Positions 472 to 11,529 of a DNA stretch of 64,000 nt are shown here, one piece after another. Below the pieces are notes generated by a model, which saw only the letters and a list, made by a program, of their open reading frames with translations, was not told the DNA's origin and made no database searches. Every line of letters begins with the position of its first letter. Position 1 is the first letter of the stretch. The stretch lies in the IMG/VR virus record IMGVR_UViG_2706795462_000001; one strand, given 5' to 3'. Source of the stretch: a virus. Taxonomy: Duplodnaviria; Heunggongvirae; Uroviricota; Caudoviricetes; Herelleviridae. Position numbers and translations under genes: made by a program.

Positions 472-500
472 TTGACATGGGTAGAGTTTTACTATATAAT
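472..500 (+). promoter_or_regulatory. sigma-A consensus promoter TTGACA-N17-TATAAT; -35 sits in the loop of hairpin 461-488
   Basis: Exact consensus hexamers with 17-bp spacer; AACTCTACC / GGTAGAGTT stem flanks the -35. Confidence 0.6.
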
Positions 501-532
501 AAGAGTATAACAAATAAGGAGATGAATTAATA

Positions 533-1116
533 ATGGAGTATGAAAAAATGATTAAAGAGATAATGATAAACTCTAAAGAAATGTCATTAGAAGATAAAAA
601 ACATTTGTAAGAAGTTTAGCTACACAAGAAACAGACAGAGTAAAAAGAAACTATTGTAAAGATAAAAATATTAAGTTAATAGAAATAGATGCAAGAAAAA
701 CATCTTTATACTATATCTTAAATAGTATAAATTATACAGAGCTACTTAGCATACTAGAGATAAGAGAAGAAAATATTAGAGAACTACTTTATAAGTATAG
801 ATTAACGGAATCAGATAATAACATAATAAAAGAATTTAATAAATGCAGAGTATATAATGAGACAGCAAGAATGTTAGGTATAGATAATTACAGAGTAAGA
901 AGTACAATAGAAAAATATGGATTAGAATATAAGTTACTATCTAAAGAGAAAAAAGCTATTAAATGTACTACGGTAAATAAAATTTTTAATAGTATACAAG
1001 AAGCTAAAGATTGGTGTGGATTAACTTCTAATGGTTTAGAGAAAGTATTATCAGGTGAGAGGAAATATGCAGGTAAGTATAAAGGACAATATTTAGAATG
1101 GGAATATGTTGACTAA
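533..1116 (+). CDS. DNA-binding protein with homing-endonuclease-type C-terminal region, interrupted by 1-nt frameshift in A6 run at 593-598
   Basis: RBS AAGGAG then ATG 533; MEYEKMIKEIMINSKEMSLEDKK stops at 607. Frame of ORF 871..1116 is open upstream to 601 (TFVRSLATQETDRVKRNY...). One extra A at 593-598 would join the two. C-terminus FNSIQEAKDW..GLTSNGLEKVLSGERKYAGKYKGQYLEWEYV resembles homing-endonuclease DNA-binding tails; no GIY-YIG/HNH motif seen. Confidence 0.4.
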
Positions 1117-1578
1117 TGAATCAGATATACCTAGAGAATAATATTCTAGAACCTAGGAAAACTTTTATGTGCCCGTCTCGTTCAATCACTCACTACCGAC
1201 TTCCCTAACTATGTATTCTATAGTTATAATATTCATTTATTATACAATACTTAAACTATAGTATTGTAACCTTAATCTATACTGAAGCGGTATTAATCTA
1301 TTGTTATTATATAATAATCTTATATAATGGCGGTATAATCTAGGTTATTACATTAGAATCATTCTAATCTAGAATTTTAATCTTTAGACCCTAGGAAAAG
1401 TGGTACTAAAATATAGAACCCTATAGGTATGGGATTCTTATTTTTAAAATTACTAAAAAGTATTAGGTTTTCCCTAGGGTAAAGTTTTAATGTACCTAAA
1501 ATCGTAAGTAGCTCCTTATCATTTAGGTCTGTTTAATTGAGAATATTAGAAGATATCCGCTTCAATTACAATTAAAGG

Positions 1579-1607
1579 TTGACAACTATGAAGCGGTATG
1601 TTATACT
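1579..1607 (+). promoter_or_regulatory. sigma-A-type promoter TTGACA-N17-TATACT (Chi heptamer in spacer)
   Basis: Hexamers read directly. Confidence 0.45.
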
Positions 1608-1718
1608 TAGTATTGTAGGGGTGGTTCCCTACAGACCTAGACTATGGTCGTGATTTTGGTTTGCATATTAGTGTCATTCATAACCTCTATTCCAGTAGGG
1701 GTTATTTTTATTTAAGTG

Positions 1719-1747
1719 TTGACATACTCTAAGTAGTATGGTATGAT
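1719..1747 (+). promoter_or_regulatory. sigma-A-type promoter TTGACA-N17-TATGAT upstream of gene 1762
   Basis: Hexamers read directly. Confidence 0.5.
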
Positions 1748-1761
1748 TAGTATATAAGGAG

Positions 1762-2067
1762 ATGAATAATATGATTGATATATACTTAGGGGAAAACTAT
1801 AATACTGATTACTTATCTACTATTATGAATATTATAAAGACTTCCGCTTCAAGAGAGTTAAGTTATGGGTTTAATAATAAAGAAGCGGATGTAAATATAG
1901 AGGATATGAAGTATGAAGGTGATGTTCTGCATGTATATGGTACGATGTCTATGGATTATCCAGGCTGTATTATTATATGTATTACTAGAGATGAGACTAA
2001 GGTTATACATGGTGGTAACTTTCTAACAGGTACAGGTCTTAGTCAAGAAGTTAGAGAAAAATTCTAG
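1762..2067 (+). CDS. hypothetical early protein, tandem paralog family A (member 1)
   Basis: RBS TAAGGAGATGA; N-terminus MIDIYLGENY..TSASRELSYGFN shared with 4 downstream paralogs. Confidence 0.65.
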   Translation: MNNMIDIYLGENYNTDYLSTIMNIIKTSASRELSYGFNNKEADVNIEDMKYEGDVLHVYGTMSMDYPGCIIICITRDETKVIHGGNFLTGTGLSQEVREKF

Positions 2068-2078
2068 GGGGAGTTATT

Positions 2079-2249
2079 ATGATTATACCATTAATTATAT
2101 TCATGATGACCTTCGGTACATTTGCATTCAGTTATGTTGCACATGATGCATACAAAGTAGATGAAAAAGGTATCATGTATGCTATGGTAGTTGGTATTGT
2201 AGTTATAAATGGGATTGGTTTAGAAATGATAATTGTAGAATGTTTATAA
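2079..2249 (+). CDS. small hydrophobic membrane peptide (53 aa)
   Basis: RBS AGGGGGAG then ATG; MIIPLIIFMMTFGTFAF.. with two hydrophobic segments. Confidence 0.4.
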   Translation: MIIPLIIFMMTFGTFAFSYVAHDAYKVDEKGIMYAMVVGIVVINGIGLEMIIVECL

Positions 2250-2262
2250 AGGAGGTAGTAAA

Positions 2263-2448
2263 ATGATAGGTCAAATTATACTATTAGCTATTGTTAGTAT
2301 AGTTACAATAGGTTGTGTAGGATTATTTTTCTATGAGACGTTCAAGAGTATTAAGTATGATGCTAATGATAAAATCTTTATGATTACTGGGAGTATATTA
2401 ATGTTAGTTATTATCGTTAGTGGTGCATTAGCTATACTTGGCATTTAG
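2263..2448 (+). CDS. small membrane protein (61 aa)
   Basis: RBS AAGGAGGTAG then ATG; two TM-like segments. Confidence 0.5.
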   Translation: MIGQIILLAIVSIVTIGCVGLFFYETFKSIKYDANDKIFMITGSILMLVIIVSGALAILGI

Positions 2449-2716
2449 AGCTCATTTAAGAAGCGGTTAAGTAGTTCATGATAAATTGGTCTAGAAATAT
2501 ATGACCGCTTCTCTATGGAAGGCTGAGAGGGTTTAGAATTGAAAGGAGAGATATAATGGCTATATTTTTTAGTATTTTATTATTGATTAACATATACTTA
2601 ATATACTATGAATGTACTTCAGTTACGTTTGATTGGTGTGCACTGCTTATTTACGTATGCTCATTATGCTCTTGTATTTATTTAATAGTATATTTTGTAT
2701 AAAAGGAGGAGATATA

Positions 2717-3031
2717 ATGCAAGCAACTATATACTGTGCTAATAGGTATAGTAAAAATACATTAAAGAGTCTTTTAGAAAAATTAGAAGCGGAGAATAGA
2801 AACTTAACATATAGTACTGACATATCAGATATGGAGGAAGTGGATGTTATTGTACAACACACTGACTTATCTTTTGCAGAGTTAATGGATTCTTGTGATA
2901 GAGTAAGTAAAGGGTCTGACCGCTTCCAAGTATTTGTAGGTAATCACGCAGGGTATTATATAAACGGTGATTTATATATTAACGAAGTAGGTAAGTTTAT
3001 TGTACCTAGGAAAACGAATATGATGATGTAA
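2717..3031 (+). CDS. hypothetical early protein, paralog family A (member 2)
   Basis: Start moved to ATG 2717 after RBS AAAGGAGGAG; MQATIYCANRY..NRNLTYSTD aligns with the family. Confidence 0.6.
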   Translation: MQATIYCANRYSKNTLKSLLEKLEAENRNLTYSTDISDMEEVDVIVQHTDLSFAELMDSCDRVSKGSDRFQVFVGNHAGYYINGDLYINEVGKFIVPRKTNMMM

Positions 3032-3043
3032 GGAGGAAATATA

Positions 3044-3334
3044 ATGATTCATATATTTGTAAAAGAGGATTATAATAAAGAAACATTAAGGAGTTTACTT
3101 GAATATATTAATGATACTGTAGGTAGGGAATTAACTTATGGTATTAATACAGACTATGATAAGGATGTAGTGATTGAAACCGATGACCCTATAGATGAGG
3201 AGAATACGATTGATTTATCAAATCTTCCTCACTTTAAAGATGACTTATGTATTCTTATAGAAGAATTATACTGTAAGGCATTTGTTAATGGGGAACCTAT
3301 TATTATACGTAAGTATGTAGAGGGGATGTTATAA
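3044..3334 (+). CDS. hypothetical early protein, paralog family A (member 3)
   Basis: RBS AAGGAGGAAAT; MIHIFVKEDY..GRELTYGIN. Confidence 0.65.
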   Translation: MIHIFVKEDYNKETLRSLLEYINDTVGRELTYGINTDYDKDVVIETDDPIDEENTIDLSNLPHFKDDLCILIEELYCKAFVNGEPIIIRKYVEGML

Positions 3335-3621
3335 TGATTATAATATTTTTAACTGAAAAATATGATGCCAAGGCTTTAAAGAAAGTATTAGAACATATTG
3401 ATAATTGTAGTAGCAGAGGTCTTAGCTATTTAATGGGAAAAGGAGAAGCGGATGTATGTATAGAGAAGAATGTATTCAGAGAAAGAGATGATGTAAGGAT
3501 TAACTCAAACATTATTGATGAAGGTAAACTTTGTATACTCATAAATAAAAATGGTTTAGAATGTAGTTACTATAGAGGTGTATCATGTAATATTGGTGCC
3601 TTTGTAAAGGAGAGATTATAA
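3334..3621 (+). CDS. hypothetical early protein, paralog family A (member 4)
   Basis: MIIIFLTEKY..SSRGLSYLMGKGEADV; start overlaps preceding stop. Confidence 0.65.
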   Translation: MIIIFLTEKYDAKALKKVLEHIDNCSSRGLSYLMGKGEADVCIEKNVFRERDDVRINSNIIDEGKLCILINKNGLECSYYRGVSCNIGAFVKERL

Positions 3622-3914
3622 TGATAGAAATATATCTCAGTGAAAACTATGATAGGGATTTACTCAAAGCAGAATTAAAATGGATTAAAGAGACCGCTTC
3701 AAGAGAACTAACTTATGATGTTAATAGAAGCCCAGGATTAGATGTACATATTAGTCCTTTTAGATATACCAAGGATGAGGTTGAAGAAATGAGCTTACAT
3801 CCTCAGTTTGAAGATGATGTATGTGTATTTATAGCTGAAACATGGATACATGAGTATCGTAATGGTAAATCAATAGGTGTAGATAGTATGGAAGAATATG
3901 TAAAGGAGATGTAA
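3621..3914 (+). CDS. hypothetical early protein, paralog family A (member 5)
   Basis: MIEIYLSENY..TASRELTYDVN; RBS AAAGGAGAG. Confidence 0.65.
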   Translation: MIEIYLSENYDRDLLKAELKWIKETASRELTYDVNRSPGLDVHISPFRYTKDEVEEMSLHPQFEDDVCVFIAETWIHEYRNGKSIGVDSMEEYVKEM

Positions 3915-3917
3915 TTA

Positions 3918-4166
3918 ATGGTAGAAACTTATTATACAGTATATCATAAGAATAGTATGAAAACTATTAAGGATTACTTAAGTAGAAGTGATTTAATTGA
4001 CTTCTTATATAAGACTTGGCATAAGGATATAAGTAATATATACCCAACAGATTATACTACGTATGAAACAAAATTCTGTATAGACATAGATGTAGTTAGA
4101 TTAATTGAAGCGGTTAATGAAGAAGGTGTATTACTTATTAATGAAGGTAATATTGTAGAGTGGTAG
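3918..4166 (+). CDS. hypothetical early protein, paralog family B (member 1)
   Basis: RBS AAGGAGATG; ..TYYTVYHKNS.. motif shared with next two genes. Confidence 0.6.
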   Translation: MVETYYTVYHKNSMKTIKDYLSRSDLIDFLYKTWHKDISNIYPTDYTTYETKFCIDIDVVRLIEAVNEEGVLLINEGNIVEW

Positions 4167-4178
4167 GAGGAGATAAAT

Positions 4179-4418
4179 ATGAGTCAGTTTTTCACGTATA
4201 CAGTGTATCATACAGAAACAGCTAAAGTAGTAGCTAAGAATTTGTTTGATGCATCATTGGTGCACCTTATTAACAAGATGATAGAGAAAGATATAGTTAA
4301 GGATATTAATTTAGAATATTACATGAATACACGTGGTGTAGTTATAGATATGAGTAGACTACTGGATGATATAGAATCACAGGGTGTATTTCTATTCAAA
4401 CGTAAGCTACATGGATAA
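4179..4418 (+). CDS. hypothetical early protein, paralog family B (member 2)
   Basis: RBS GGAGGAG; MSQFFTYTVYHTETAKVVA..; about 40 percent identity by eye to 4530..4769. Confidence 0.65.
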   Translation: MSQFFTYTVYHTETAKVVAKNLFDASLVHLINKMIEKDIVKDINLEYYMNTRGVVIDMSRLLDDIESQGVFLFKRKLHG

Positions 4419-4451
4419 TAGGTTAGACCCTAAAAAGTTTGAGATACAATA

Positions 4452-4497
4452 GGATGCTTAGGATAATAGGATAAAAATAACTTAGGATGCTTAGGAT
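4452..4497 (+). repeat. Direct repeat GGATGCTTAGGAT x2 (plus extra TAGGAT copies) in the intergenic region
   Basis: Copies at 4452-4464 and 4485-4497. Confidence 0.7.
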
Positions 4498-4529
4498 GAA
4501 ATACGATACGATAGGGAGGTTAAGTTAAG

Positions 4530-4769
4530 ATGCAAGAGTTAATAACTTATATAATTTACCATAAAGAATCAGGTAAAGTAGTAGCACAGGATTTAAGTGA
4601 ATTAGAAACTATTGAACTTATATACAAAATGATAGAAGAGGGATTAGTAAAAGATATAGAATTATCTAACTACCGTCTTTTTAGTGGGAATATAGATATA
4701 CTTAACTTATTAGTAGACATACGTAAACAAGGTATATTTGATTTTGAACATACTTGGCACACAAGATAA
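4530..4769 (+). CDS. hypothetical early protein, paralog family B (member 3)
   Basis: RBS GGGAGG; MQELITYIIYHKESGKVVA.. paralog of 4179..4418. Confidence 0.65.
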   Translation: MQELITYIIYHKESGKVVAQDLSELETIELIYKMIEEGLVKDIELSNYRLFSGNIDILNLLVDIRKQGIFDFEHTWHTR

Positions 4770-4780
4770 GGAGGGATAGG

Positions 4781-5125
4781 ATGATAGTTATATATTCAGA
4801 TGAGTCTAGGGATTACTTAAGAGATGAGTTCTTACCTTGGCTTAATGATAGAGATAGATATTTAAAATATTATAAGAATGAGTTACCTGAAGATATAGAC
4901 TCTTCTTATGTTGTATCAGTTGTATACTGTAGGGATATGGAAGGTCTTATGAATAGGAAAGATATTCTTATTGGTAATAGTTATAGAGAGCCTGTAGCTG
5001 TATTAGGTGTTCCTGAATTTTTTGGTAACTATTCTAATTATTACTATTATAAAGGAGAGCATATAAGTAAGCATGACCTAGGAGAGATAATTAGGTTAAA
5101 GGCTTGGCAACGTAATTTTGACTAA
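4781..5125 (+). CDS. hypothetical early protein
   Basis: RBS AAGGAGGG 4768-4775 then ATG 4781 (MIVIYSDESRDY..); ORF-track start 4754 lacks an RBS. Confidence 0.55.
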   Translation: MIVIYSDESRDYLRDEFLPWLNDRDRYLKYYKNELPEDIDSSYVVSVVYCRDMEGLMNRKDILIGNSYREPVAVLGVPEFFGNYSNYYYYKGEHISKHDLGEIIRLKAWQRNFD

Positions 5126-5204
5126 GTAGCTCTCTCTAATTTCACTAAGTAGCTCCCTAGGAATTGCCTAAGTAGCTCGGTGTGATTTTACCCTAAGTAG
5201 CTCC
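5123..5204 (+). repeat. Four direct copies of CTAAGTAGCTC at 22-25-bp spacing (iteron-like)
   Basis: Starts 5123, 5145, 5168, 5193. Confidence 0.8.
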
Positions 5205-5325
5205 CTCTGTTTTCTATTAGTTTATTTTAACCGCTTCACGTGTCTATATATAGACAATCGGAATAATAGCAGACCGCAAAAAGAAATACACTAGGATATT
5301 ATTCCCAGTGTATTGTATAATTTTT

Positions 5326-5903: not shown

Positions 5904-5976
5904 AAAGGTACAGCAAGAGAACAGCAACAAGGTATTAGAATTATATAAAAAAATTATTTAATTGGAGATGATTTAA

Positions 5977-6384: not shown

Positions 6385-6413
6385 TTGACACCTTACAAGA
6401 TACATGTTAATAT
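6385..6413 (+). promoter_or_regulatory. early promoter TTGACA-N17-TAATAT with upstream AAAAAACTTTTTAAAAAAG
   Basis: Family member. Confidence 0.6.
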
Positions 6414-6490
6414 TAGTATAGAAGTTAAGACAAGCCACATAGCAAATAACGAAATTAAATAAAAAAATTATAGAATAGGATTTGATTATT

Positions 6491-6778
6491 ATGACAAACA
6501 AAAATTACTTATACGAAGAAACTCACACAGTACAAGGGCAAGACATTACGGCTTTCAGAATTCCAAATGACACAAACGGCAACCCACGTTATGTAGTGCA
6601 TTTCATGGATTTAGACATTAAACTAGCAGACTATGACAACATCAATAAGCTATACGGATTTAAAAAATATACTGCTAAATGGTTTGGCGGTGGTGTAGTA
6701 TTCCAAAGCTATAATATTGAAGATACATTAAATTACGCACTATCTAATGTTAAAGAAATAGAAGCGGTTAAGAATTAA
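6491..6778 (+). CDS. hypothetical early protein
   Basis: Conserved cassette AGGATTTGATTATTATG; ATG 6491 (MTNKNYLYEE..); promoter 6385-6413. Confidence 0.6.
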   Translation: MTNKNYLYEETHTVQGQDITAFRIPNDTNGNPRYVVHFMDLDIKLADYDNINKLYGFKKYTAKWFGGGVVFQSYNIEDTLNYALSNVKEIEAVKN

Positions 6779-6827
6779 AACCGCTTCTGAATTAAATAAA
6801 AAAATTATATAAAAAGGATATGATATT

Positions 6828-7019
6828 ATGAAATTTAAAATAGAAAAAAATAACAGTGATATAAAAACTTTATGGAATTTAGCTAAAAATGGATATATGA
6901 GTTATCAAACTGTACACAATATATTTAAAAATGAATCAGATGAATTTATTATATTTAACAGTAAACAAACTTATAATAAATTTATGGAATTAAGATATAA
7001 TAGAAGTGCAATTCAATAG
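6828..7019 (+). CDS. hypothetical early protein (63 aa)
   Basis: RBS AAAGGATATG; followed by terminator 7039-7075. Confidence 0.5.
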   Translation: MKFKIEKNNSDIKTLWNLAKNGYMSYQTVHNIFKNESDEFIIFNSKQTYNKFMELRYNRSAIQ

Positions 7020-7038
7020 TATAAAAAAGTTATATAAT

Positions 7039-7075
7039 TCCCTAGGATTAAATTCCTAGGGATTTTTATTTGTTT
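7039..7075 (+). terminator. rho-independent terminator
   Basis: TCCCTAGGA-ttaaat-TCCTAGGGA hairpin plus T-run. Confidence 0.6.
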
Positions 7076-7126
7076 TAATTTATATAAAAAAATTATTTAA
7101 TAAATAAATTAGTGTAAAATTGACTG

Positions 7127-7156
7127 TTGACAAGGTTGTATTTTTTATGGTATAAT
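7127..7156 (+). promoter_or_regulatory. promoter TTGACA-N18-TGgTATAAT (extended -10); no protein gene downstream
   Basis: Consensus hexamers; downstream is a repeated non-coding cassette. Confidence 0.5.
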
Positions 7157-7215
7157 GAAGTGAAGACCTTTTTTAGTATAAAAAAATTATTATATAAAAA
7201 ATTTATATTAAATGG
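7127..7215 (+). repeat. Non-coding cassette (promoter + GAAGTGAAGACCTTTTTTAGTATAAAAAAATTATTATATAAAAAA), copy 1
   Basis: Near-duplicate of 8730-8820. Confidence 0.6.
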
Positions 7216-7536
7216 TTTTAAAACCGCTCTTTCTCCCCACCTTGTCATATTTATAGTGGAAGGGTTAGGCGGGTTACCACTGTTTTACTTTCTATATATA
7301 GTATACTATGAATAATGGTAATTGTCAACACCTTTCAGAAACTTTTTTTACTTTCTTTTATTATTATATAAAAAAATTATACATATTTTAGGGCTCCACT
7401 TCCATTATATAATAATTCGGTCTTAATGTCAATACTTTTATTCAAAAAAGTTTTTTAAATTAATTTCAACAAATCTATTGACTTATGTTTTTTTCTATAG
7501 TAATATATAGGTATACCAACAAGGGAGGCAATACAA

Positions 7537-7695
7537 ATGCTAAAATTTAAATGGAAAAACAAAACAATCAAATCAACTCAAAAAACGGATAACATTATTT
7601 TACTTCTTATAGGTGGTTTAGTTGCAACAGTCACGCCTAAACTTGTAAACTGGTTTTTACTACTACAAGATAATATAAATATTTTTTTAAGATAA
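7537..7695 (+). CDS. small membrane peptide (52 aa)
   Basis: RBS AAGGGAGG then ATG 7537; MLKFKWKNKTIKSTQKTDNIILLLIGGLVATV.. Confidence 0.4.
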   Translation: MLKFKWKNKTIKSTQKTDNIILLLIGGLVATVTPKLVNWFLLLQDNINIFLR

Positions 7696-7698
7696 CTA

Positions 7699-7727
7699 TT
7701 GACAACTTAGAAACAACGTGTTAATAT
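7699..7727 (+). promoter_or_regulatory. early promoter TTGACA-N17-TAATAT
   Basis: Family member. Confidence 0.55.
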
Positions 7728-7794
7728 TAAGATACAAGGTAAGGGAAGCGGTTGACCGCTTCCGACCTAAATAAAAAAAAGTTTAAAAAAACTA

Positions 7795-7823
7795 TTGACA
7801 GTCACTTGAAACCATGATATTAT
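7795..7823 (+). promoter_or_regulatory. early promoter TTGACA-N17-TATTAT with upstream A8GTTTAAAAAA
   Basis: Family member; gene 7863 follows. Confidence 0.6.
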
Positions 7824-7862
7824 TAAGATAACAAAAAACAAACAGAAAAGGAATTGATTATA

Positions 7863-8186
7863 ATGAAATTTATCAAAACTATCGAAAACTTATTAGAAAA
7901 AGCAGAAAACAAAGGGCAAGCAATTTTAAACGGTCGTTACTTTGACGGGTATAGCAAAGGTGAGCTTGAGGAAAAATATGCAATTGAAATTGATGGCAAC
8001 AAATTGATTATGCGTCACTGGGGTACACAAACAATTGAGATTGACTTAAGCATAAATGAGATTGTTTCATATTACGGTGAAAGCAATTCAGACCGTGACA
8101 GTTTAAACACACTTGTATATTGCTTAGGAATTGCGCCAAACTTTAGATACTTACCAAGCAAAAACTTATTCATTTACGAAAATTAA
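7863..8186 (+). CDS. hypothetical early protein
   Basis: Promoter 7795-7823; cassette AAAGGAATTGATTATAATG; ATG 7863 (MKFIKTIENL..). Confidence 0.65.
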   Translation: MKFIKTIENLLEKAENKGQAILNGRYFDGYSKGELEEKYAIEIDGNKLIMRHWGTQTIEIDLSINEIVSYYGESNSDRDSLNTLVYCLGIAPNFRYLPSKNLFIYEN

Positions 8187-8199
8187 TTAAATAAAGGGC

Positions 8200-8228
8200 T
8201 TGACTTCCAAGCCCTACCATGTTATTAT
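8200..8228 (+). promoter_or_regulatory. early promoter TTGACT-N17-TATTAT; -35 inside hairpin 8195-8215
   Basis: AGGGCTTG/CAAGCCCT stem encloses the -35. Confidence 0.6.
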
Positions 8229-8285
8229 TAAATTGTAAGGTAATCAAGCACAACGACAAAATAAACTGAAAAGGAATTGATGAAA

Positions 8286-8666
8286 ATGTTCAAATTACAA
8301 AATAAAGTGGAAATTATCGTACCTAAGGAAGATAACAACGGCGTTGAGATTGCAGACAAACGTATTAAAGAATATGTAAATAGCATCACAATGGAAGCGG
8401 GCGGTTGTACTATTACAGAAATTAAAGGGCAATGGTACTCAGAAGATGAAAAACGTATAATGGAAGATAACAACTTAAATCTTGAGTGGTATTATCTGCA
8501 AGACAGTGCAAAATTCATGACAGTTGAATTAAAAGGTATTGTAAGACGTTTAATTGAAGTTTACGGACAAGAGGCTATCAGTATCAAAGTTAATGGCACA
8601 TTGTACATTGTAGACCAATCAGACATTGAAGAATTACACACAACATTATTAAATATCATGAAATAA
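8286..8666 (+). CDS. hypothetical early protein
   Basis: Promoter 8200-8228; cassette AAAGGAATTGATGAAAATG (start 8280 or 8286); terminator 8679-8715 downstream. Confidence 0.65.
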   Translation: MFKLQNKVEIIVPKEDNNGVEIADKRIKEYVNSITMEAGGCTITEIKGQWYSEDEKRIMEDNNLNLEWYYLQDSAKFMTVELKGIVRRLIEVYGQEAISIKVNGTLYIVDQSDIEELHTTLLNIMK

Positions 8667-8678
8667 AAAATTTATATA

Positions 8679-8715
8679 AACCGCTTCGTATTAAATTCTT
8701 GAAGCGGTATTTTTG
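8679..8715 (+). terminator. rho-independent terminator whose stem arms are Chi heptamers (AACCGCTTC / GAAGCGGT)
   Basis: 9-bp stem, 13-nt loop, then ATTTTTGT. Confidence 0.6.
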
Positions 8716-8729
8716 TGTAAAATTTATGC

Positions 8730-8758
8730 TTGACAAATGTATTAAAAAATGAGATAAT
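8730..8758 (+). promoter_or_regulatory. promoter TTGACA-N17-GATAAT followed by a repeated non-coding cassette
   Basis: Hexamers read directly. Confidence 0.5.
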
Positions 8759-8820
8759 AGAGTGACGACTTTTTTTAGTATAAAAATAATATTATATAAA
8801 AAAGTTATAGAGTTTTTAGG
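8730..8820 (+). repeat. Non-coding cassette, copy 2 (promoter + GAGTGACGACTTTTTTTAGTATAAAAATAATATTATATAAAAAAG)
   Basis: Near-duplicate of 7127-7215; TAGGGCTCCANNTCCATTATAT element also repeats at 7388 and 8815. Confidence 0.6.
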
Positions 8821-8988
8821 GCTCCAAGTCCATTATATCAATTTTGCTACTAGTTGTCAATACTTTCTTTTTTTATATAATAATTTAATTATCTTAAAGA
8901 TACCGTCCACCTCCATTATCTCAAATTTTGCCCCTAAAGTCAAGAACTTTCTTTCAAATAATTTATTTAAAAAAGTTTACAAAAAGGG

Positions 8989-9017
8989 TTGACTTATTTT
9001 GTACTATGGTGTAATAT
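8989..9017 (+). promoter_or_regulatory. early promoter TTGACT-N17-TAATAT
   Basis: Family member. Confidence 0.5.
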
Positions 9018-9084
9018 ATAAAGTGTAGTAAGGAAGCGGAGGAAATAACCTAAAAAAAGAATTTAAAAAACTTTTAAAAAGGTG

Positions 9085-9113
9085 TTGACAAACTTCCAAA
9101 TACATGATAATAT
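9085..9113 (+). promoter_or_regulatory. early promoter TTGACA-N17-TAATAT with upstream A7GAATTTAAAAAACTTTTAAAAAG
   Basis: Family member; gene 9158 follows. Confidence 0.6.
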
Positions 9114-9157
9114 TAAGATAGTTAGAAAAACAAAAAAACGAAAAGGAATTGATAATT

Positions 9158-9379
9158 ATGAACAGATTAGAAATAGTAAAAGATACGGCAATGGAATATA
9201 TCCTTATGATGGATAATAGCGTTATGGACGGCGTTATGACACAAGAGGAATACAACGAAGCGGTTAGCTTTGAAAAGGTGTATGACTACACTCTATCAGA
9301 AGCAAATCAAGAATGTAAATTCTTAGGTGGTAAGGTTTTAACTTTCCTAGTACATGAAGCAATCGAAGAATACGCATAA
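9158..9379 (+). CDS. hypothetical early protein (73 aa)
   Basis: Promoter 9085-9113; cassette AAAGGAATTGATAATTATG; MNRLEIVKDT.. Confidence 0.6.
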   Translation: MNRLEIVKDTAMEYILMMDNSVMDGVMTQEEYNEAVSFEKVYDYTLSEANQECKFLGGKVLTFLVHEAIEEYA

Positions 9380-9398
9380 AAAAACTTAATAAAAGGGG

Positions 9399-9427
9399 TT
9401 GACATTCAACCCCTACCATGTTAATAT
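9399..9427 (+). promoter_or_regulatory. early promoter TTGACA-N17-TAATAT; -35 inside hairpin 9394-9414
   Basis: AGGGGTTGA/TCAACCCCT 9-bp stem. Confidence 0.6.
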
Positions 9428-9459
9428 TAATATATACCAAATGAGAGGAATTGATAATT

Positions 9460-9597
9460 ATGAGATACGAAATTGTAACGTTAGTTAATCAAGAATTGTT
9501 TATGTATGCAACATTCAACAAGCAGGAAGCAGAAGCCAAATATCAAGAATGGTGTGACTTATATGGTCAAGAAAATGTAAGCATGGAAAAAAATTAA
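9460..9597 (+). CDS. hypothetical early peptide (45 aa)
   Basis: Promoter 9399-9427; cassette GAGGAATTGATAATTATG; MRYEIVTLVNQ.. Confidence 0.5.
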   Translation: MRYEIVTLVNQELFMYATFNKQEAEAKYQEWCDLYGQENVSMEKN

Positions 9598-9606
9598 AAT
9601 AAGCTG

Positions 9607-9635
9607 TTGACAAACTAACCGCTTCATGATAATAT
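9607..9635 (+). promoter_or_regulatory. early promoter TTGACA-N17-TAATAT (Chi heptamer in spacer)
   Basis: Family member. Confidence 0.55.
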
Positions 9636-9667
9636 TAAACTATACTAAAGAAAAGGAAATGATTACA

Positions 9668-9832
9668 ATGACAAAAACAATCAAACAATTAGAAAGCCAA
9701 TTAGAGAGTCTAGAAAGAAAATCAGATGAGGAATTAGCAAACGGATACTATGACAGATTTGAAAGAACTTGTGCACAGATTAGAGAATTAGACCTACAAA
9801 TCGAATTAAAAAAGAACTCAGAAACTGTTTAA
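9668..9832 (+). CDS. hypothetical early protein, coiled-coil (54 aa)
   Basis: Promoter 9607-9635 excludes the 9626 start; cassette AAAGGAAATGATTACAATG; MTKTIKQLESQLESLER.. Confidence 0.55.
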   Translation: MTKTIKQLESQLESLERKSDEELANGYYDRFERTCAQIRELDLQIELKKNSETV

Positions 9833-9850
9833 AAAAATCTAAATAAGGGG

Positions 9851-9879
9851 TTGACACTTAACCCCTTAGATGTTATTAT
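9851..9879 (+). promoter_or_regulatory. early promoter TTGACA-N17-TATTAT; -35 inside hairpin 9845-9867
   Basis: AAGGGGTT/AACCCCTT stem. Confidence 0.6.
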
Positions 9880-9911
9880 TAATATATACTAAAGAAAAGG
9901 AATTGATACAA

Positions 9912-10148
9912 ATGAAATTAATCAATAGAGATAATGAAATCGTAATTAGCATAGCAACACTTGAGAGCGTAAAACAAGCCCTAATTTGGGAGTACATCGA
10001 CCACTTAGATAATAACATCCTAGACAGTAAAATTTACGACCAAGAAGCGGTTGTGGTGACTTCTGACACTCTACAGTCAATCAAATTTGCGGACACTATG
10101 GAAGAACTAGAAGAATATGTAAACGACATCGGTTGGAAATTAATTTAA
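9912..10148 (+). CDS. hypothetical early protein (78 aa)
   Basis: Promoter 9851-9879; cassette AAAGGAATTGATACAAATG; MKLINRDNEIV.. Confidence 0.6.
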   Translation: MKLINRDNEIVISIATLESVKQALIWEYIDHLDNNILDSKIYDQEAVVVTSDTLQSIKFADTMEELEEYVNDIGWKLI

Positions 10149-10156
10149 AAAAGGTA

Positions 10157-10185
10157 TTGACACCCTAGCATATAGATGGTAATAT
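10157..10185 (+). promoter_or_regulatory. early promoter TTGACA-N17-TAATAT
   Basis: Family member; acidic-protein gene 10228 follows. Confidence 0.6.
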
Positions 10186-10227
10186 AAGAGTATAGAAAAA
10201 ATAAAAAAAGAAAAGGATTTGATTATT

Positions 10228-10698
10228 ATGACAAATACAATACAAGCATTTTTACAAGGACAAGAAGCAAGCACAGTTAAGGACGTAGCAACTCATGGAG
10301 TACAAAGCGGAGCAATTGGCAAATTAATCTACACATCAGACATAGTAAACTTCTTTGATAGATACGAGCAGGACATTGAAGCCGTCATCACTGAATACAT
10401 TGAAGAGGTTACGGGACAACAATATTATGACTTATTGAACTATGAGCTTATGAGAGACCTCGAGAATTATGCAAATGTAGAATTTGAAGACGAAGACGAA
10501 TATAATAACATTCAATTTGACCTAGCAGAAAACATTGCTTCTGATGAGGTTGAAGGATTTGAAGACATGGACGAAGCAGACCAGGCGGAAGCAATCTATG
10601 AGGCTATGGATGATGTTGAATTAGAACTACAAGAAACGGACAAGGTTCAATATGTTAATCTAGCGGTTGAGATTGTAGCGCAAAGAATGGCACTATAG
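10228..10698 (+). CDS. highly acidic early protein (candidate DNA-mimic anti-restriction / anti-defence factor)
   Basis: Promoter 10157-10185; cassette AAAGGATTTGATTATTATG; C-terminal half dominated by D/E (..EFEDEDEYNNIQFDLAENIASDEVEGFEDMDEADQAEAIYEAMDDVELELQ..). Confidence 0.6.
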   Translation: MTNTIQAFLQGQEASTVKDVATHGVQSGAIGKLIYTSDIVNFFDRYEQDIEAVITEYIEEVTGQQYYDLLNYELMRDLENYANVEFEDEDEYNNIQFDLAENIASDEVEGFEDMDEADQAEAIYEAMDDVELELQETDKVQYVNLAVEIVAQRMAL

Positions 10699-10770
10699 GA
10701 AGCACACAGACACACACACACAGAGAAGCTTAACCGCTTCTCTAATACAATTAATCAGGAGATGTTGAAG

Positions 10771-11034
10771 ATGAAAATTAACCAATTAAACAATGCTAAA
10801 AAACTATACGAAACATTATTTGCTATCGAGTTTGATAGTACTATCGAGGAAGATTGGACAATAGATAATGACTCTCTAGAAGCTAAACTATTCTTGGAGT
10901 TATCAGATGAGGGCAAAAAGGTTTATGCAATGAGTCACGCTAAGCAATGGGCAAATATTGTTATGGATATGGAAGAAGAGGAATATAGAAGCTATTACGG
11001 AAATGATTTAGATTATATTTTAGAGGAGATGTAA
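10771..11034 (+). CDS. hypothetical early protein (start 10762 or 10771)
   Basis: RBS CAGGAG 10755-10760; acidic C-terminus. Confidence 0.55.
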   Translation: MKINQLNNAKKLYETLFAIEFDSTIEEDWTIDNDSLEAKLFLELSDEGKKVYAMSHAKQWANIVMDMEEEEYRSYYGNDLDYILEEM

Positions 11035-11037
11035 AAC

Positions 11038-11211
11038 ATGAATACAAGAAGGGTAAACAAAGCGTTAAACGAAGCGGTTCGATTATTAGATGAGCAAATA
11101 GCAGACACTCAAAAGACTATGCAGGAGTTGAATAAACAACTCGAGAAGCAAATAAAGGCTAAGCAAGAGCTAATGATATTAGTTGATGTTATGACTGGTG
11201 ATGATGAGTAA
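11038..11211 (+). CDS. small coiled-coil early protein (57 aa)
   Basis: RBS GGAGGAGATG overlaps previous stop; MNTRRVNKALNEAVRLLDEQIADTQK.. Confidence 0.45.
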   Translation: MNTRRVNKALNEAVRLLDEQIADTQKTMQELNKQLEKQIKAKQELMILVDVMTGDDE

Positions 11212-11480
11212 TGAGCATTAGAGAGGTTCATAATGTCGTTAAGAGTGCAAAGAGCAAACTCCTGCAGGAACATAATAATATTAATAATGTAATCATAGAT
11301 GACTACATCACAGAAGAGCTACACAGACGCACACAGGGAAGCGGAACAATACAGATGAACAATAACACCGCTTCATATAGTAATGGCTCATATGGTAGCT
11401 TAGAAGAGCTTAGAGAAGCTTATGACCTATCTTCATTATCTACTGAGGAGATTAAAGAACTAATACAAACATTTGTTTAA
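11211..11480 (+). CDS. hypothetical early protein
   Basis: ATG overlaps previous stop (TAATGA); 89 aa. Confidence 0.5.
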   Translation: MSIREVHNVVKSAKSKLLQEHNNINNVIIDDYITEELHRRTQGSGTIQMNNNTASYSNGSYGSLEELREAYDLSSLSTEEIKELIQTFV

Positions 11481-11498
11481 ATTATTTTATCAAAACGC

Positions 11499-11529
11499 TT
11501 TACAATCTTTTAATTTGTATGATATAATG
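11499..11529 (+). promoter_or_regulatory. promoter TTTACA-N19-TATAAT (TG-extended)
   Basis: Upstream of gene 11565. Confidence 0.4.

What the first reader, a model, noticed from the sequence alone, without database searches (positions are those of the whole stretch)
472..11529. Modular early-gene units: at least 17 near-consensus sigma-A promoters with UP-like tracts and one conserved RBS cassette
Promoters of form TTGACA/TTGACT-N17-TAATAT/TATTAT, often preceded by AAAAAAGTTTTTAAAA-type A/T tracts, recur every 300-500 bp. Most small genes start from the same cassette, AAAAGGAATTGATTATTATG (6474, 7845, 8266, 9139, 9443, 9650, 9894, 10209, 11541). Units look generated by duplication with gene-content swapping, typical of a host-takeover early region recognised by host RNA polymerase. 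The ORF-track N-extensions MIIM.. come from a TTG inside this cassette.
Basis: seen in the sequence. Interest (0 to 1): 0.55.

Follow-up and report, generated by a model that had tools for sequence, protein, structure and literature searches.

The report
Kayvirus terminal-repeat early promoter/RBS cassettes
The region is the already-described immediate-early "host-takeover" block in the long terminal repeat of a Staphylococcus phage (P108, a phage K relative). About 16 strong host-type promoters and a shared ribosome-binding cassette each drive a small unrelated gene, and the same cassettes appear to be where relatives have swapped genes in and out.

Summary
The window is Staphylococcus phage P108 (Kayvirus), and the long terminal repeat (LTR) spans window 1156-11872.

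- **Promoters.** On the + strand, 5875-11528 holds 16 sigma-A-type promoters: TTGACW-N17, usually TGN, then TAATAT/TATTAT. Twelve match the strict pattern, against 0.03 expected in shuffles.
- **RBS cassette.** There are 11 copies of GGAWWTGAT, against 0.22 expected and none elsewhere on the + strand.
- **Conservation.** Across four other kayviruses the -35 hexamers never vary (0/336). The -10, TG and RBS elements vary 2.6-3.6%, against 12-14% at spacer and third-codon sites.
- **Prior work.** Published RNA-seq on phages K and 515A1 already lists the orthologous promoters as early. It also notes that the TAATAT -10 is specific to this module.
- **Scope error.** Positions 472-5300 do not fit the description. 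They hold a middle-class operon with few promoters and ordinary GGAGG sites.

What I add:
- The cassette is a split Shine-Dalgarno, pairing with the 16S tail as AAAGGA plus UGAU.
- Four -35 boxes sit inside GC hairpins placed right after stop codons.
- The cassettes are paralogous, while the genes they drive are unrelated ORFans.
- Indels against phages K, Sa87, Stab21 and ESa2 cross over inside the cassettes.

This resembles the T4-type PeSL regulatory cassettes.

The parts
1156..11872 (.). Long terminal repeat (LTR) of phage P108, present once in this collapsed record
   Evidence: Phage SYL is 99.7% identical and annotates a repeat_region of 10,724 bp that aligns to window 1146-11872.
1579..5125 (+). 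TreA-H type operon of middle class. Promoters at 1579 and 1719, 12 closely packed or overlapping genes with canonical GGAGG sites, and two paralog families. It is not part of the modular early array.
   Evidence: The phage K orthologue TU1 is classed as middle with a single promoter.
5749..11773 (+). Immediate-early modular block, from the TreI unit to the TreU terminator
   Evidence: The phage K orthologues gp010-021 are early.
5749..5777 (-). Promoter TTGACT-N17-TAATAT of the inverted TreI unit
   Evidence: Phage K orthologue at 3586-3614.
5326..5684 (-). TreI gene (5664..5326) with the same RBS cassette (AAAAGGATTTGATTTAAATG)
5875..5903 (+). Promoter of TreJ (TTGACT-N17-TAATAT, no TG), subfamily C
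   Evidence: Phage K orthologue at 3709-3737, early.
5977..6285 (+). TreJ gene. Its RBS is the variant TGGAGATGAT.
6290..6307 (+). GC hairpin (-9.2 kcal/mol) enclosing the -35 of the weak promoter 6295-6323 (TTGCAA-N17-TAATAT), 5 nt after the TreJ stop codon
6385..6413 (+). Promoter of TreK (TTGACA-N14-TGT-TAATAT), in tandem 90 bp after the one at 6295
   Evidence: Phage K orthologue at 4219-4247.
6471..6778 (+). RBS cassette plus TreK gene (ATG at 6491)
6808..7019 (+). RBS cassette (AAAAGGATATGATATTATG) plus TreL gene (ATG at 6828), with no promoter of its own
7039..7062 (+). Canonical + strand terminator after TreL
   Evidence: Phage K annotates the orthologue at 4874-4897.
7127..7156 (+). 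Orphan 12/12 consensus promoter (TTGACA-N18-TATAAT with TG) with no ORF or RBS downstream
   Evidence: A paralogous copy lies at 8730, and both are conserved in the Sepunavirus Quidividi.
7478..7695 (+). Promoter 7478-7506 (subfamily C) plus TreN gene (ATG at 7537, RBS AAGGGAGG)
   Evidence: Phage K orthologue at 5765-5793.
7699..7727 (+). Upstream tandem promoter, which gives a leader containing hairpin 7741-7760. It is a hybrid of the two phage K promoters that flank treO.
7795..8186 (+). Promoter 7795-7823, RBS cassette 7843-7865 and TreP gene
8195..8215 (+). GC hairpin (-12.5 kcal/mol) enclosing the -35 of promoter 8200-8228, 9 nt after the TreP stop codon
8266..8666 (+). RBS cassette plus gene g8286. 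This is the left crossover point of the 1.6-kb four-gene block that phage K lacks, and the site of a 543-bp insertion in Stab21.
8680..8708 (+). Terminator hairpin made of two opposed GAAGCGG motifs, followed by a T run
   Evidence: Read from the sequence. Motif positions.
8730..8758 (+). Second orphan promoter (TTGACA-N17-GATAAT), paralogous to the one at 7127
8989..9017 (+). Upstream tandem promoter, subfamily C
9085..9379 (+). Promoter 9085-9113, RBS cassette 9138-9160 and gene g9158
9394..9414 (+). GC hairpin (-13.2 kcal/mol) enclosing the -35 of promoter 9399-9427
9440..9597 (+). RBS cassette plus gene g9460
9607..9832 (+). Promoter 9607-9635, RBS cassette 9648-9670 and gene g9668
9844..9868 (+). 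GC hairpin (-13.2 kcal/mol) enclosing the -35 of promoter 9851-9879
9892..10148 (+). RBS cassette plus TreQ gene. This is the right crossover point of the four-gene block.
10157..11480 (+). Promoter 10157-10185 and RBS cassette 10208-10230, then TreR, g10771, TreS and TreT as one operon. The internal RBS sites are of the GGAGATGT type, and 10757-10775 and 11021-11042 recur as indel junctions.
11499..11744 (+). Promoter 11499-11528 (TTTACA-N18-TATAAT), RBS cassette 11545-11567 and TreU gene
   Evidence: Phage K orthologue at 8082-8111.
11754..11773 (.). Bidirectional terminator that closes the early block
   Evidence: Phage K annotates the orthologue at 8370-8387.
5317..11806 (.). Thirteen copies of an AT palindrome, core ATAAAAAAWTTAT and full consensus ATTATATAA-A5-TTATATAAT. 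The + strand copies start at 5945, 6459, 6796, 7021, 7084, 7178, 7194, 7368, 8663 and 8796. The - strand copies start at 5329, 5696 and 11806.

Best explanation
This is the immediate-early 'host-takeover' block in the right-hand part of the long terminal repeat of a Kayvirus, Staphylococcus phage P108.

**How a unit is built.** Each of about 12 transcription units reads as follows:
- phased A-tracts at about -42, -53 and -65, which resemble an UP element;
- TTGACA/T, a 17-bp spacer that usually ends in TGN, and a TAATAT/TATTAT -10;
- a short (24-71 nt), A-rich, unstructured leader;
- a 'split' Shine-Dalgarno, GAAAAGGAWWUGAU, followed by N4-6 and AUG;
- one small ORFan gene, or in one case a four-gene operon.

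**How it works.**
1. The unmodified host sigma-A RNA polymerase fires these promoters as soon as the DNA arrives.
2. Published work on the relative phage 812 shows that the right genome end enters first. By inference for P108, this block is therefore the first DNA in the cell. Each gene body enters before its own promoter, which favours one promoter per gene over one long operon.
3. The cassette pairs with the 16S rRNA 3' tail in two blocks, AAAGGA and UGAU(U). This gives a moderate duplex of about -10 kcal/mol.

**Second role of the cassettes.** The 60-160 bp cassettes are paralogous repeats placed between unrelated genes. They therefore also serve as homologous-recombination points where kayviruses gain, lose and replace early genes. 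This is the behaviour described for T4-type PeSL cassettes.

**What is shown and what is inferred.**
- Shown here: sequence anatomy, statistical excess, purifying selection, cassette paralogy, unrelated cargo genes, crossovers inside cassettes, and hyperplasticity of the region.
- Taken from the literature on close relatives: early timing, host-RNAP dependence and entry direction.
- Inferred: a role for the A-tracts in binding the alpha-CTD, attenuation by the hairpins, the entry-order rationale, and that recombination at the cassettes is a selected property rather than a by-product.
For: **Identity.** 100% match to P108. LTR limits come from phage SYL.

**Excess over chance.** 12 strict promoters against 0.03 expected. 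11 GGAWWTGAT against 0.22 expected and 0 elsewhere on the + strand.

**Specificity.** A further 40 kb of the P108 genome holds no TAWTAT-type promoters.

**Footprint across K, Sa87, Stab21 and ESa2.**
- Mismatch rates in the elements: -35 0/336, -10 2.7%, TG 3.6%, RBS 2.6%, UP region 4.7%.
- Mismatch rates at comparison sites: spacer 12.4%, codon position 3 14.1%, other non-coding 9.8%.

**Published data on relatives.**
- The phage K orthologues are early, cluster 1.
- Transcripts are seen at 2 min.
- The early consensus is TTGACW-17-TRTGN-TATANT with an up-element, and TAATAT occurs only before host-takeover genes.
- A separate LTR promoter logo has been published.
- Ejection proceeds right end first.

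**RBS cassette.** The bipartite duplex is -9.5 to -10.7 kcal/mol. It falls to -6.2 when UGAU is scrambled and reaches -20.4 when GG is restored. The leaders are unstructured.

**A-tract phasing:**. **Hairpins over the -35 box:**. **Ten-unit alignment:**

**Modularity.**
- Cassette-to-cassette hits of 69-82% over 60-160 bp.
- No protein paralogy, and a distinct PHROG for each of the 10 proteins scanned.
- Phage K lacks the four-gene block, with the crossover inside the shared 'gaaaaggaattgat'.
- The phage K treO unit is flanked by two promoter copies, of which P108 holds a hybrid.
- Stab21 carries a 543-bp gene inserted at the same RBS cassette.
- Junctions recur at 10775/11021.
- 18 of 32 breakpoints fall in features that cover 28% of the region (p=9e-4).
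- Only 36 of 264 related records cover at least 80% of this block. The two control blocks give 231/237 and 236/362.

**Same design in other phages.** It is present in a Sepunavirus and, with a different cassette, in SPO1.
Against: - No transcription start was mapped in P108 itself. The published evidence is RNA-seq coverage in relatives, not 5'-end-specific mapping.
- UP-like tracts are not significantly richer here than at the window's other strong promoters (p=0.07).
- Only 4 of 16 promoters have a strong hairpin over the -35 box. These hairpins lack a 3' U-run, so on paper they are terminators only for the opposite strand.
- Phage K RNA-seq treats gp014-021 as one unit without internal terminators.
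- The breakpoint statistic is weakened in three ways. Events are shared between relatives, BLAST boundaries are fuzzy, and selection would place viable indel ends in intergenic DNA anyway.
- One junction (10775/11024) rests on only about 5-8 bp of shared sequence.
- The 16S tail sequence was taken from memory, not from a host genome.
Confidence: 0.8

Rival explanations
1. The cassettes are only expression signals. Their similarity reflects common descent plus selection for strong transcription and translation. Indel ends fall there only because viable deletions and insertions must end between genes, so recombination at the cassettes is neither mechanistically favoured nor selected.
For: Features plus the ORF-less zones make up nearly all the intergenic DNA, so an intergenic bias alone would enrich breakpoints in them. 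One junction (10775/11024) has only about 5-8 bp of shared sequence. K and Sa87 share two events.
Against: Three junctions show 27-50 bp of one genome aligning to two different places in the other, with the switch inside the shared cassette. That is the signature of recombination between repeats. The same points are reused by different events: deletion in K, replacement in Stab21 and replacement in ESa2. The region is far more variable in content than control regions of equal nucleotide identity.
Confidence: 0.25
2. The conserved GAAAAGGAWWUGAU cassette is mainly an operator on the mRNA for a phage-encoded translational repressor or endoribonuclease that shuts off the early genes together, in the manner of T4 RegA or RegB. 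On this view it is more than a ribosome-binding site.
For: The cassette is conserved (2.6% mismatch) and is confined to early units. It consistently avoids the GGAG core that the middle-operon sites use. The two central positions are always A or T.
Against: Every conserved position apart from the two W positions is explained by complementarity to the 16S tail, and the UGAU block contributes about 4 kcal/mol. In a Sepunavirus the cassette drifts to AAGGGATTGA while remaining complementary to the anti-SD. No candidate regulator was identified.
Confidence: 0.12
3. The GC hairpins with A-rich 5' flanks are terminators for leftward (antisense) transcription. That transcription would come from the strong minus-strand promoters inside the repeat or from the converging minus-strand gene cluster. 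On this view the hairpins are not attenuators of the + strand early units.
For: The scan calls all four hairpins minus-strand terminators with T-rich tails. Consensus 12/12 minus-strand promoters exist at 7432 and 8860. The + strand 3' flanks lack U-runs.
Against: PeSL stem-loops of similar design act as strong terminators in reporter assays. Each hairpin sits 5-14 nt after a + strand stop codon, which is where an end-of-gene signal would be expected. The two roles are not mutually exclusive.
Confidence: 0.35
4. The promoter-like matches are chance products of AT-rich DNA.
For: The loose scan finds 115 sites against 82 expected in shuffles, so weak matches are mostly noise.
Against: The strict pattern occurs 12 times against 0.03 expected. 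The -35 boxes are invariant in 336 aligned cells. Published early transcription starts at the orthologous sites.
Confidence: 0.01

Closest known systems
Annotated LTR/early promoters of Kayvirus phages K, 812 and vB_SauM-515A1 (Botka 2019, Kornienko 2020, Finstrlova 2022, and the 2024 phage K RNA-seq paper PMC11598898)
   Same: These are the same orthologous sites and the same consensus: TTGACW, 17 bp, TRTGN, an AT-rich up-element, and a TAATAT -10 specific to the host-takeover module. Expression is early.
   Different: P108 carries five additional early genes (g8286, g9158, g9460, g9668, g10771), four of them with their own promoter/RBS cassette, and lacks treM and treO. None of the passages I read in these papers mentions the shared split-SD cassette, the hairpin-over-35 subclass, or cassette-mediated gene exchange. 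No searchable paper combines Kayvirus, terminal repeat and Shine-Dalgarno.
PeSL (promoter-early stem-loop) regulatory cassettes of T4-type phages (Arbiol 2010, Comeau 2014)
   Same: Both have an AT-rich upstream region, a sigma-70-type early promoter, a G/C stem-loop that may overlap the -35 box, and an SD with start codon at the 3' end. Both are repeated in hyperplastic regions upstream of ORFans, and indels between close relatives end in them (searches compared).
   Different: The phage family (Herelleviridae) and host (Gram-positive) are unrelated. Only about a quarter of the units have a strong stem-loop. The RBS part is as conserved as the promoter and is itself a crossover site. Terminator activity and mini-circles are untested.
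[quoted passage not shown]
   Same: It lies in the same phage family and the same genomic position. It also holds many small early genes with promoters and ribosome-binding sites typical of highly expressed genes. SPO1 has its own repeated RBS cassette, TGTAAAAGGAGAGGTTnnnnATG, before 8 genes, and intergenic repeats that are 72-73% identical.
   Different: The cassette sequence differs, since SPO1 keeps GGAG. The SPO1 units run divergently in two directions. I did not test whether the proteins are homologous.
T5 pre-early (first-step-transfer) region in the terminal repeat
   Same: In both phages the terminal repeat enters first and carries the earliest host-polymerase-dependent genes. The phage 812 paper itself draws the T5 analogy for paused ejection.
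   Different: Two-step transfer is not demonstrated for kayviruses. I made no sequence comparison, so this rests on established knowledge only.

Membership tests
Sigma-A/sigma-70 housekeeping-type promoter | -35 TTGACA and -10 TATAAT hexamers 17+/-1 bp apart | tested here: met
   16 sites in 5875-11528. The -35 is 5-6/6 in 14 of them (4/6 at 6295, TTTACA at 11499). The -10 is 4-6/6, with A at position 2 and T at position 6 always kept. The spacer is 17 bp in 14 and 18 bp in 2.
Sigma-A/sigma-70 housekeeping-type promoter | Extended -10 TG, or UP-element-like A/T tracts at -40 to -60 | tested here: met
   TGN is present in 12 of 16 promoters (read). A-tracts peak at -45..-39 and -56..-50.
Sigma-A/sigma-70 housekeeping-type promoter | Transcription starts 6-8 nt downstream of the -10 and depends on host holoenzyme | not testable with these tools
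   Supported only through relatives, by RNA-seq coverage steps in 515A1 and K.
UP element (alpha-CTD binding site) | The upstream A/T tract raises promoter activity through the alpha-CTD | not testable with these tools
   Only position and composition match. Enrichment over other promoters in the window is marginal (p=0.07).
PeSL-type mobile regulatory cassette | A composite of AT-rich tract, sigma-70-like early promoter, and SD/start at the 3' end, repeated many times | tested here: met
   Alignment of 10 units. Paralogous hits of 69-82% identity over 60-160 bp.
PeSL-type mobile regulatory cassette | A stable stem-loop within or next to the promoter | tested here: inconclusive
   Strong hairpins (-9 to -13 kcal/mol) over the -35 box occur at 4 of 16 promoters, weak ones (-4 to -5) at 2, and none at the rest.
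PeSL-type mobile regulatory cassette | Concentrated in hyperplastic regions, upstream of ORFans | tested here: met
   36/264 related records keep at least 80% of the block, against 231/237 and 236/362 for controls. The 10 early proteins scanned each fall in a separate PHROG of unknown function.
PeSL-type mobile regulatory cassette | Indels and replacements between close relatives have their end points in the cassettes | tested here: met
   Crossovers inside the RBS cassette or promoter in K, Sa87, Stab21 and ESa2. 18 of 32 breakpoints fall in features that cover 28% of the region.
PeSL-type mobile regulatory cassette | The stem-loop terminates transcription, and recombination between cassettes yields mini-circles | not testable with these tools
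   This needs reporter assays and physical detection of circles.
Herelleviridae terminal-repeat host-takeover module (SPO1 type) | Located in the terminal redundancy, with many small early genes, each with strong promoter and RBS signals | tested here: met
   LTR limits, unit anatomy, and the SPO1 comparison.
Herelleviridae terminal-repeat host-takeover module (SPO1 type) | The gene products shut off or redirect host functions | not tested
   All products are of unknown function. The function is only presumed in the literature.
Shine-Dalgarno ribosome-binding site | Complementary to the 16S rRNA 3' tail and 5-10 nt upstream of the start codon | tested here: met
   The bipartite duplex AAAGGA + UGAU(U) has a free energy of -9.5 to -10.7 kcal/mol and ends 4-6 nt before AUG. 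The 16S tail sequence was taken from memory.

The most novel reading that the evidence does not exclude
The right half of the Kayvirus/Twortvirinae terminal repeat may be a dedicated gene-cassette exchange platform, rather than just a row of early promoters. It is built from a small vocabulary of strictly conserved 'joints':
- the promoter, in three subfamilies;
- the split-SD cassette;
- a 23-bp AT palindrome found almost nowhere else in the genome.

ORFan anti-host genes and HNH homing-endonuclease genes would be inserted, deleted and replaced at these joints. That would make the region a Gram-positive, Herelleviridae counterpart of the T4 PeSL system. The palindrome could act as a protein-binding or homing site that marks module borders.
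Probability: 0.3. Interest if true: 0.55.

Novelty: new member of a known kind. Interest (0 to 1): 0.35.

Why it matters
The promoter array itself is textbook for this phage group and adds little. The useful part is practical and evolutionary.

- **Phage therapy.** Kayviruses are leading therapeutic phages, and their terminal-repeat genes are the least understood and most variable part of the genome. If the promoter, RBS and palindrome cassettes are the joints at which early anti-host genes are exchanged, they would explain why LTR length and content differ among phages that are otherwise more than 90% identical.
- **Predicting and engineering recombinants.** The cassettes would predict where recombinants arise in cocktails and production lots. 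They also offer ready-made insertion points and strong, compact expression cassettes for engineering.
- **Generality.** The finding would extend the PeSL idea from T4-type phages of Gram-negative hosts to an unrelated family. This suggests that regulatory-cassette-mediated shuffling is a general solution for fast-evolving early regions.

Tried and rejected
- **Chance matches in AT-rich DNA.** Rejected on shuffles and conservation.
- **Known RNA families.** An Rfam scan of 1-13000 at E<=1 gave only three sub-threshold hits. No known RNA family explains the orphan promoters or the leaders.
- **Function of the early proteins.** PHROGs places each of the 10 proteins scanned in its own family of unknown function, so function gave no lead. 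I therefore did not spend the large protein, structure or metagenome searches.
- **Translation from the TTG inside the cassette (MIIM...).** Rejected. The TTG lies directly after the AAAGGA block, which is too close for an SD spacing, and the ATG keeps 4-6 nt after the UGAU block.
- **Structured leaders or riboswitch-like elements.** Rejected. Folding energies are 0 to -5 kcal/mol and no better than shuffles.
- **The AT palindrome as the kayvirus late promoter.** It does not resemble the published late -10 box TGTTATATTA.
- **SPO1 promoters.** The strict Staphylococcus promoter pattern finds only 3 sites in the SPO1 terminal redundancy. I did not pursue the comparison of promoters, and only the RBS cassettes and intergenic repeats were compared.
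- **Osmundson 2012 (gp67 and UP elements).** The paper could not be opened. That point rests on how other papers summarise it.
- **Whole-collection pattern scans.** I did not run them, because the motifs are short and AT-rich and would return mostly chance hits.
- **Tool limitation.** Several loci had to be fetched twice, and ESa1, Stab23 and Sb1M were examined only by pattern counts.

Full report
**What the window is.** Bases 5700-11800 are 100% identical to Staphylococcus phage P108 (Kayvirus, Herelleviridae) and 99.6-99.7% identical to SYL, G15 and others. Phage SYL annotates a terminal repeat of 10,724 bp that aligns to window 1146-11872. I take the long terminal repeat (LTR) as 1156-11872. 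The P108 record is a collapsed, permuted assembly, so the single LTR copy is flanked by the right-end unique sequence (window 1-1155) and by the left-end minus-strand gene cluster (from about 12000). Matching to Staph1N gives the Tre names:
- TreI is 5664..5326 on the minus strand.
- On the + strand: TreJ 5977, TreK 6491, TreL 6828, TreN 7537, TreP 7863, TreQ 9912, TreR 10228, TreS 11038, TreT 11211, TreU 11565.
- P108 has extra genes at 8286, 9158, 9460, 9668 and 10771, and lacks treM (HNH) and treO.

**Checking the observation.**
- The + strand carries 19 sites of the stated form between 472 and 11529, of which 16 lie between 5875 and 11528.
- The strict pattern TTGACW-N17-TAWWAT occurs 12 times in 5800-11800. 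Dinucleotide shuffles give a mean of 0.03. The remaining 58 kb of the + strand has 4.
- All 12 use TAATAT or TATTAT rather than TATAAT. That variant occurs once elsewhere on the + strand and twice on the minus strand of the window, and not at all in another 40 kb of the P108 genome.
- By my reading of the sequence, twelve of the 16 carry TGN directly before the -10.
- Spacing between promoters runs 90-1342 bp (median 306), with three tandem pairs 90-96 bp apart (6295/6385, 7699/7795, 8989/9085).
- The RBS core GGAWWTGAT occurs 11 times, against 0.22 expected and none elsewhere on the + strand. A twelfth copy serves the inverted TreI unit, which also has a TTGACT-N17-TAATAT promoter at 5777 on the minus strand.
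- The 'MIIM' ORF extensions do start at the TTG inside the cassette.
- The description does not fit 472-5300. The site at 472 lies outside the repeat. Positions 1579-5125 form one operon with promoters only at its head, canonical GGAGG sites and closely packed or overlapping genes. The phage K orthologue of that operon is a middle-class unit.

**Anatomy of a unit.** Aligning ten units from 45 bp upstream of the -35 box to the ATG gives this consensus:
- A-tracts, then GGTG-TTGACA;
- 14 nt, then cATGnTAATATTAA(g/t)ATA;
- an A-rich leader;
- aGAAAAGGAATTGATnAnnATG.

Runs of A>=4 pile up at -45..-39 and -56..-50 (9 of 16 promoters each), with a weaker peak at -68..-63. They are therefore phased by about one helical turn and lie where UP subsites lie. 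Assuming a start 7 nt after the -10, leaders are 24-71 nt long, 46-64% A, and fold no better than shuffles, at 0 to -5 kcal/mol.

Four promoters (6295, 8200, 9399, 9851) have their -35 box inside a GC hairpin of -9 to -13 kcal/mol. Each hairpin begins 5-14 nt after the stop codon of the previous gene. These hairpins have an A-rich 5' flank and no 3' U-run.

By spacer and flanking sequence the promoters fall into three subfamilies:
- A: 6385, 7699, 7795, 9085.
- B, the hairpin type: 6295, 8200, 9399, 9851, and probably 10157.
- C, TTGACT without TG: 5875, 7478, 8989.

**Are the elements functional?** I aligned the block to four other kayviruses (K, Sa87, Stab21, ESa2) and counted mismatches by site class.

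| Site class | Mismatch rate |
|---|---|
| -35 hexamers | 0/336 |
| -10 hexamers | 2.7% |
| TG | 3.6% |
| RBS cassette | 2.6% |
| UP region | 4.7% |
| Promoter spacers | 12.4% |
| Third codon positions | 14.1% |
| Other non-coding DNA | 9.8% |

The elements are therefore under purifying selection. Published work supplies the in vivo evidence for the orthologous sites:
- The 2024 phage K study lists K promoters 3709, 4219, 5765, 5988, 6189, 6285, 6690, 7021 and 8082 as early, cluster 1.
- Finstrlova et al. saw gp014-018 transcripts at 2 min.
- Kornienko et al. derived TTGACW-17-TRTGN-TATANT with an up-element from RNA-seq coverage steps. They remarked that TAATAT occurs only before host-takeover genes.
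- Botka et al. published a separate logo for LTR promoters.

The promoter array and its early, host-polymerase-dependent character are therefore already known.

**The RBS cassette.** I folded each cassette against the 16S 3' tail GAUCACCUCCUUUCU, a sequence taken from memory.
- The cassette pairs in two blocks, AAAGGA and UGAU(U), separated by a 2x2 internal loop.
- The duplex is -9.5 to -10.7 kcal/mol. It is -6.2 if UGAU is scrambled and -20.4 if the two W positions are restored to GG.
- The neighbouring middle operon uses ordinary GGAGG sites, averaging -11.9.
- Every conserved position apart from the two W positions is thus explained by anti-SD pairing.

I read the cassette as a split Shine-Dalgarno of moderate strength sitting in an open leader. 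I cannot exclude that the constant avoidance of GGAG serves a regulator.

**Modular evolution.**
- Cassettes hit one another at 69-82% identity over 60-160 bp. Examples are 9062-9162 with the cassette about 765 bp downstream (80%, E=2e-17), and 9830-9908 with the 9399 cassette (82.5%). This extends far beyond the functional hexamers, so the cassettes are paralogous.
- The genes they drive are not related. No early protein hits another. Each of the 10 that I scanned has its own PHROG of unknown function.
- The middle operon, by contrast, holds a five-member and a three-member paralog family.

Comparison with relatives shows where content changes:
1. Phage K lacks the 1.6-kb block carrying g8286 to g9668. 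The K sequence follows the window's TreP side up to 'gaaaaggaattgat' and the TreQ side from there on, so the crossover lies inside the RBS cassette.
2. The treO unit of phage K is flanked by two promoter copies, and P108 carries one hybrid promoter at 7699. Sa87 has a 680-bp insertion at the same place.
3. Stab21 has a 543-bp gene inserted at the 8270 RBS cassette, with 33 bp duplicated.
4. The points 10775 and 11021-11024, both RBS sites, are used by a deletion in K, a replacement in Stab21 and a replacement in ESa2.

Overall, 18 of 32 breakpoints fall in promoter, RBS or palindrome features that cover 28% of the block (binomial p=9e-4). Several misses lie within 10 bp of a feature. This test is imperfect because events are shared, alignment ends are fuzzy and selection favours intergenic end points.

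Finally, the block is hyperplastic. Only 36 of 264 related records cover at least 80% of it in one piece. Two control blocks of the same length give 231 of 237 and 236 of 362.

**Beyond Kayvirus.** The Sepunavirus Quidividi has the same design:
- TTGACA-N17-TAWTAT promoters;
- the same A/T tracts;
- a hairpin over the -35 box;
- cassettes such as GAAGGGAATTGAT and AAGGGATTGAAAAAAATG.

SPO1 is the type phage of the family, and its terminal redundancy carries the classical host-takeover module. It has its own repeated cassette, TGTAAAAGGAGAGGTTnnnnATG, before eight genes, and 72-73% identical intergenic repeats of 96-125 bp.

**How it most likely works.**
1. Host sigma-A polymerase recognises these promoters on naked entering DNA. 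This rests on sequence plus published timing.
2. A 2026 structural study showed that phage 812 ejects its genome right end first. The TreU side of the right LTR therefore enters first, and every + strand early gene enters ahead of its own promoter.
3. I infer that this favours one promoter per gene. Each unit becomes expressible as soon as it is inside the cell, without waiting for a distant operon promoter.
4. Short open leaders and the split SD then give immediate translation.
5. Because the cassettes are repeated between unrelated genes, recombination between them, within a genome or between co-infecting kayviruses, adds, removes or replaces genes without breaking expression signals. Junctions show this for past events, but the rate and mechanism are untested.
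6. The hairpins may attenuate read-through as in PeSLs, stop antisense transcripts, or both.
7. The kayvirus anti-sigma protein (G1 gp67 / K gp137) is reported to block UP-dependent promoters. Whether it turns these promoters down is open.

**Comparison and novelty.**
- The closest match is the published annotation of the same promoters in K, 812 and 515A1.
- In design the block matches the PeSL cassettes of T4-type phages. Five of seven defining features are met here, one is only partly met (stem-loops in about a quarter of units), and one is untestable.
- I found no paper that links Herelleviridae terminal repeats to PeSL-type shuffling. I also found none that mentions the cassette or the palindrome sequence. 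The search library does not hold Lobocka 2012 or Stewart 1998, so this is not proof of absence.
- I therefore file the finding as a known feature, with a modest extension: a new member of the regulatory-cassette kind.

**Left unexplained.**
- A 23-bp AT palindrome, ATTATATAA-A5-TTATATAAT, occurs 13 times, all between 5317 and 11806. It occurs once in another 40 kb of the genome, varies only 2.0% among kayviruses, and recurs in the same contexts in Quidividi.
- It sits directly upstream of four RBS cassettes, directly upstream of four terminators, and in the two ORF-less zones.
- The points where HNH genes are present in K and ESa2 but absent in P108 abut or overlap a copy.
- Two orphan consensus promoters (7127, 8730) have no ORF downstream and are conserved across genera.

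**Limits.**
- No experiment was done on P108 itself.
- Transcription starts are inferred.
- The 16S tail is from memory.
- Only four relatives were used for the footprint and the junctions.

Noticed in passing
window 1284-11374 (whole LTR), both strands: The heptamer GAAGCGG, reported as the S. aureus Chi-like sequence for AddAB/RexAB, occurs 29 times in the 10.7-kb LTR (17 on +, 12 on -). It occurs 2 times in the other 53 kb of the window and 0 times in another 40 kb of P108. A Markov-3 model expects about 3. The density is about 23 times that of the host genome. Copies are often paired in hairpin stems (6761/6787, 7745/7762, 8687/8701). Because ejection is right end first, the + strand copies face an enzyme entering at the leading end. 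No searchable paper links Chi and kayviruses.
   Followed up: partly
window 5317-11806: + strand copies at 5945, 6459, 6796, 7021, 7084, 7178, 7194, 7368, 8663, 8796; - strand copies at 5329, 5696, 11806: A 23-bp all-A/T palindrome, ATTATATAA-AAAAA-TTATATAAT, is confined to the early half of the LTR and strongly conserved (2.0% mismatch). It is present in the same contexts in K, Sa87, Stab21, Staph1N and the Sepunavirus Quidividi. It lies just upstream of RBS cassettes or terminators, so TreI, TreK and TreL are each flanked by direct copies. Its function is unknown. Candidates are a protein operator, a module border or homing site, or an AU-rich mRNA element.
   Followed up: partly
window 7020-7536 and 8667-9157: Two ORF-less zones are partial repeats of each other (78-80% identity). 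Each holds an orphan + strand consensus promoter (7127, 8730) followed by GAAGTGAAGACCTTTTTTAGTAT. Each also holds a 12/12 minus-strand promoter (7432, 8860). In phage K the 7432-type promoter drives the HNH gene treM, and in ESa2 an HNH gene sits in the second zone. P108 keeps only 31 and 112 bp there, so these look like emptied homing-endonuclease sites. The minus-strand promoters point toward DNA still to enter the cell and could in principle help pull it in, which is speculation.
   Followed up: partly
window 1762-5125: The middle-class operon contains two families of tandem paralogs. One has five members (1762, 2717, 3044, 3334, 3621) and the other three (3918, 4179, 4530). Three small hydrophobic proteins are also present (2079, 2263, 2556).
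   Followed up: no
locus L018 (SPO1 1-14500): starts at 4487, 5078, 5450, 5889, 7571, 11010, 12193, 12697: The SPO1 host-takeover module has its own repeated RBS cassette, TGTAAAAGGAGAGGTTnnnnATG. It also has 96-125 bp intergenic repeats at 72-73% identity. Cassette reuse therefore seems general in this family.
   Followed up: partly
window 11815-11870: G-tracts (GGGGG, GGGG, GGGGG, GGG) lie just inside the right LTR boundary. This fits the 'terminal G-tracts' described for the phage 812 genome end that sits in the tail.
   Followed up: no
window 6385-6413, 8200-8228, 9399-9427, 9851-9879: The early -10 region reads TGTTAATATTA or TGTTATTATTA. That is one base longer than the published kayvirus late-promoter box TGTTATATTA. 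Whether the phage late sigma factor can also use these sites is unknown.
   Followed up: no
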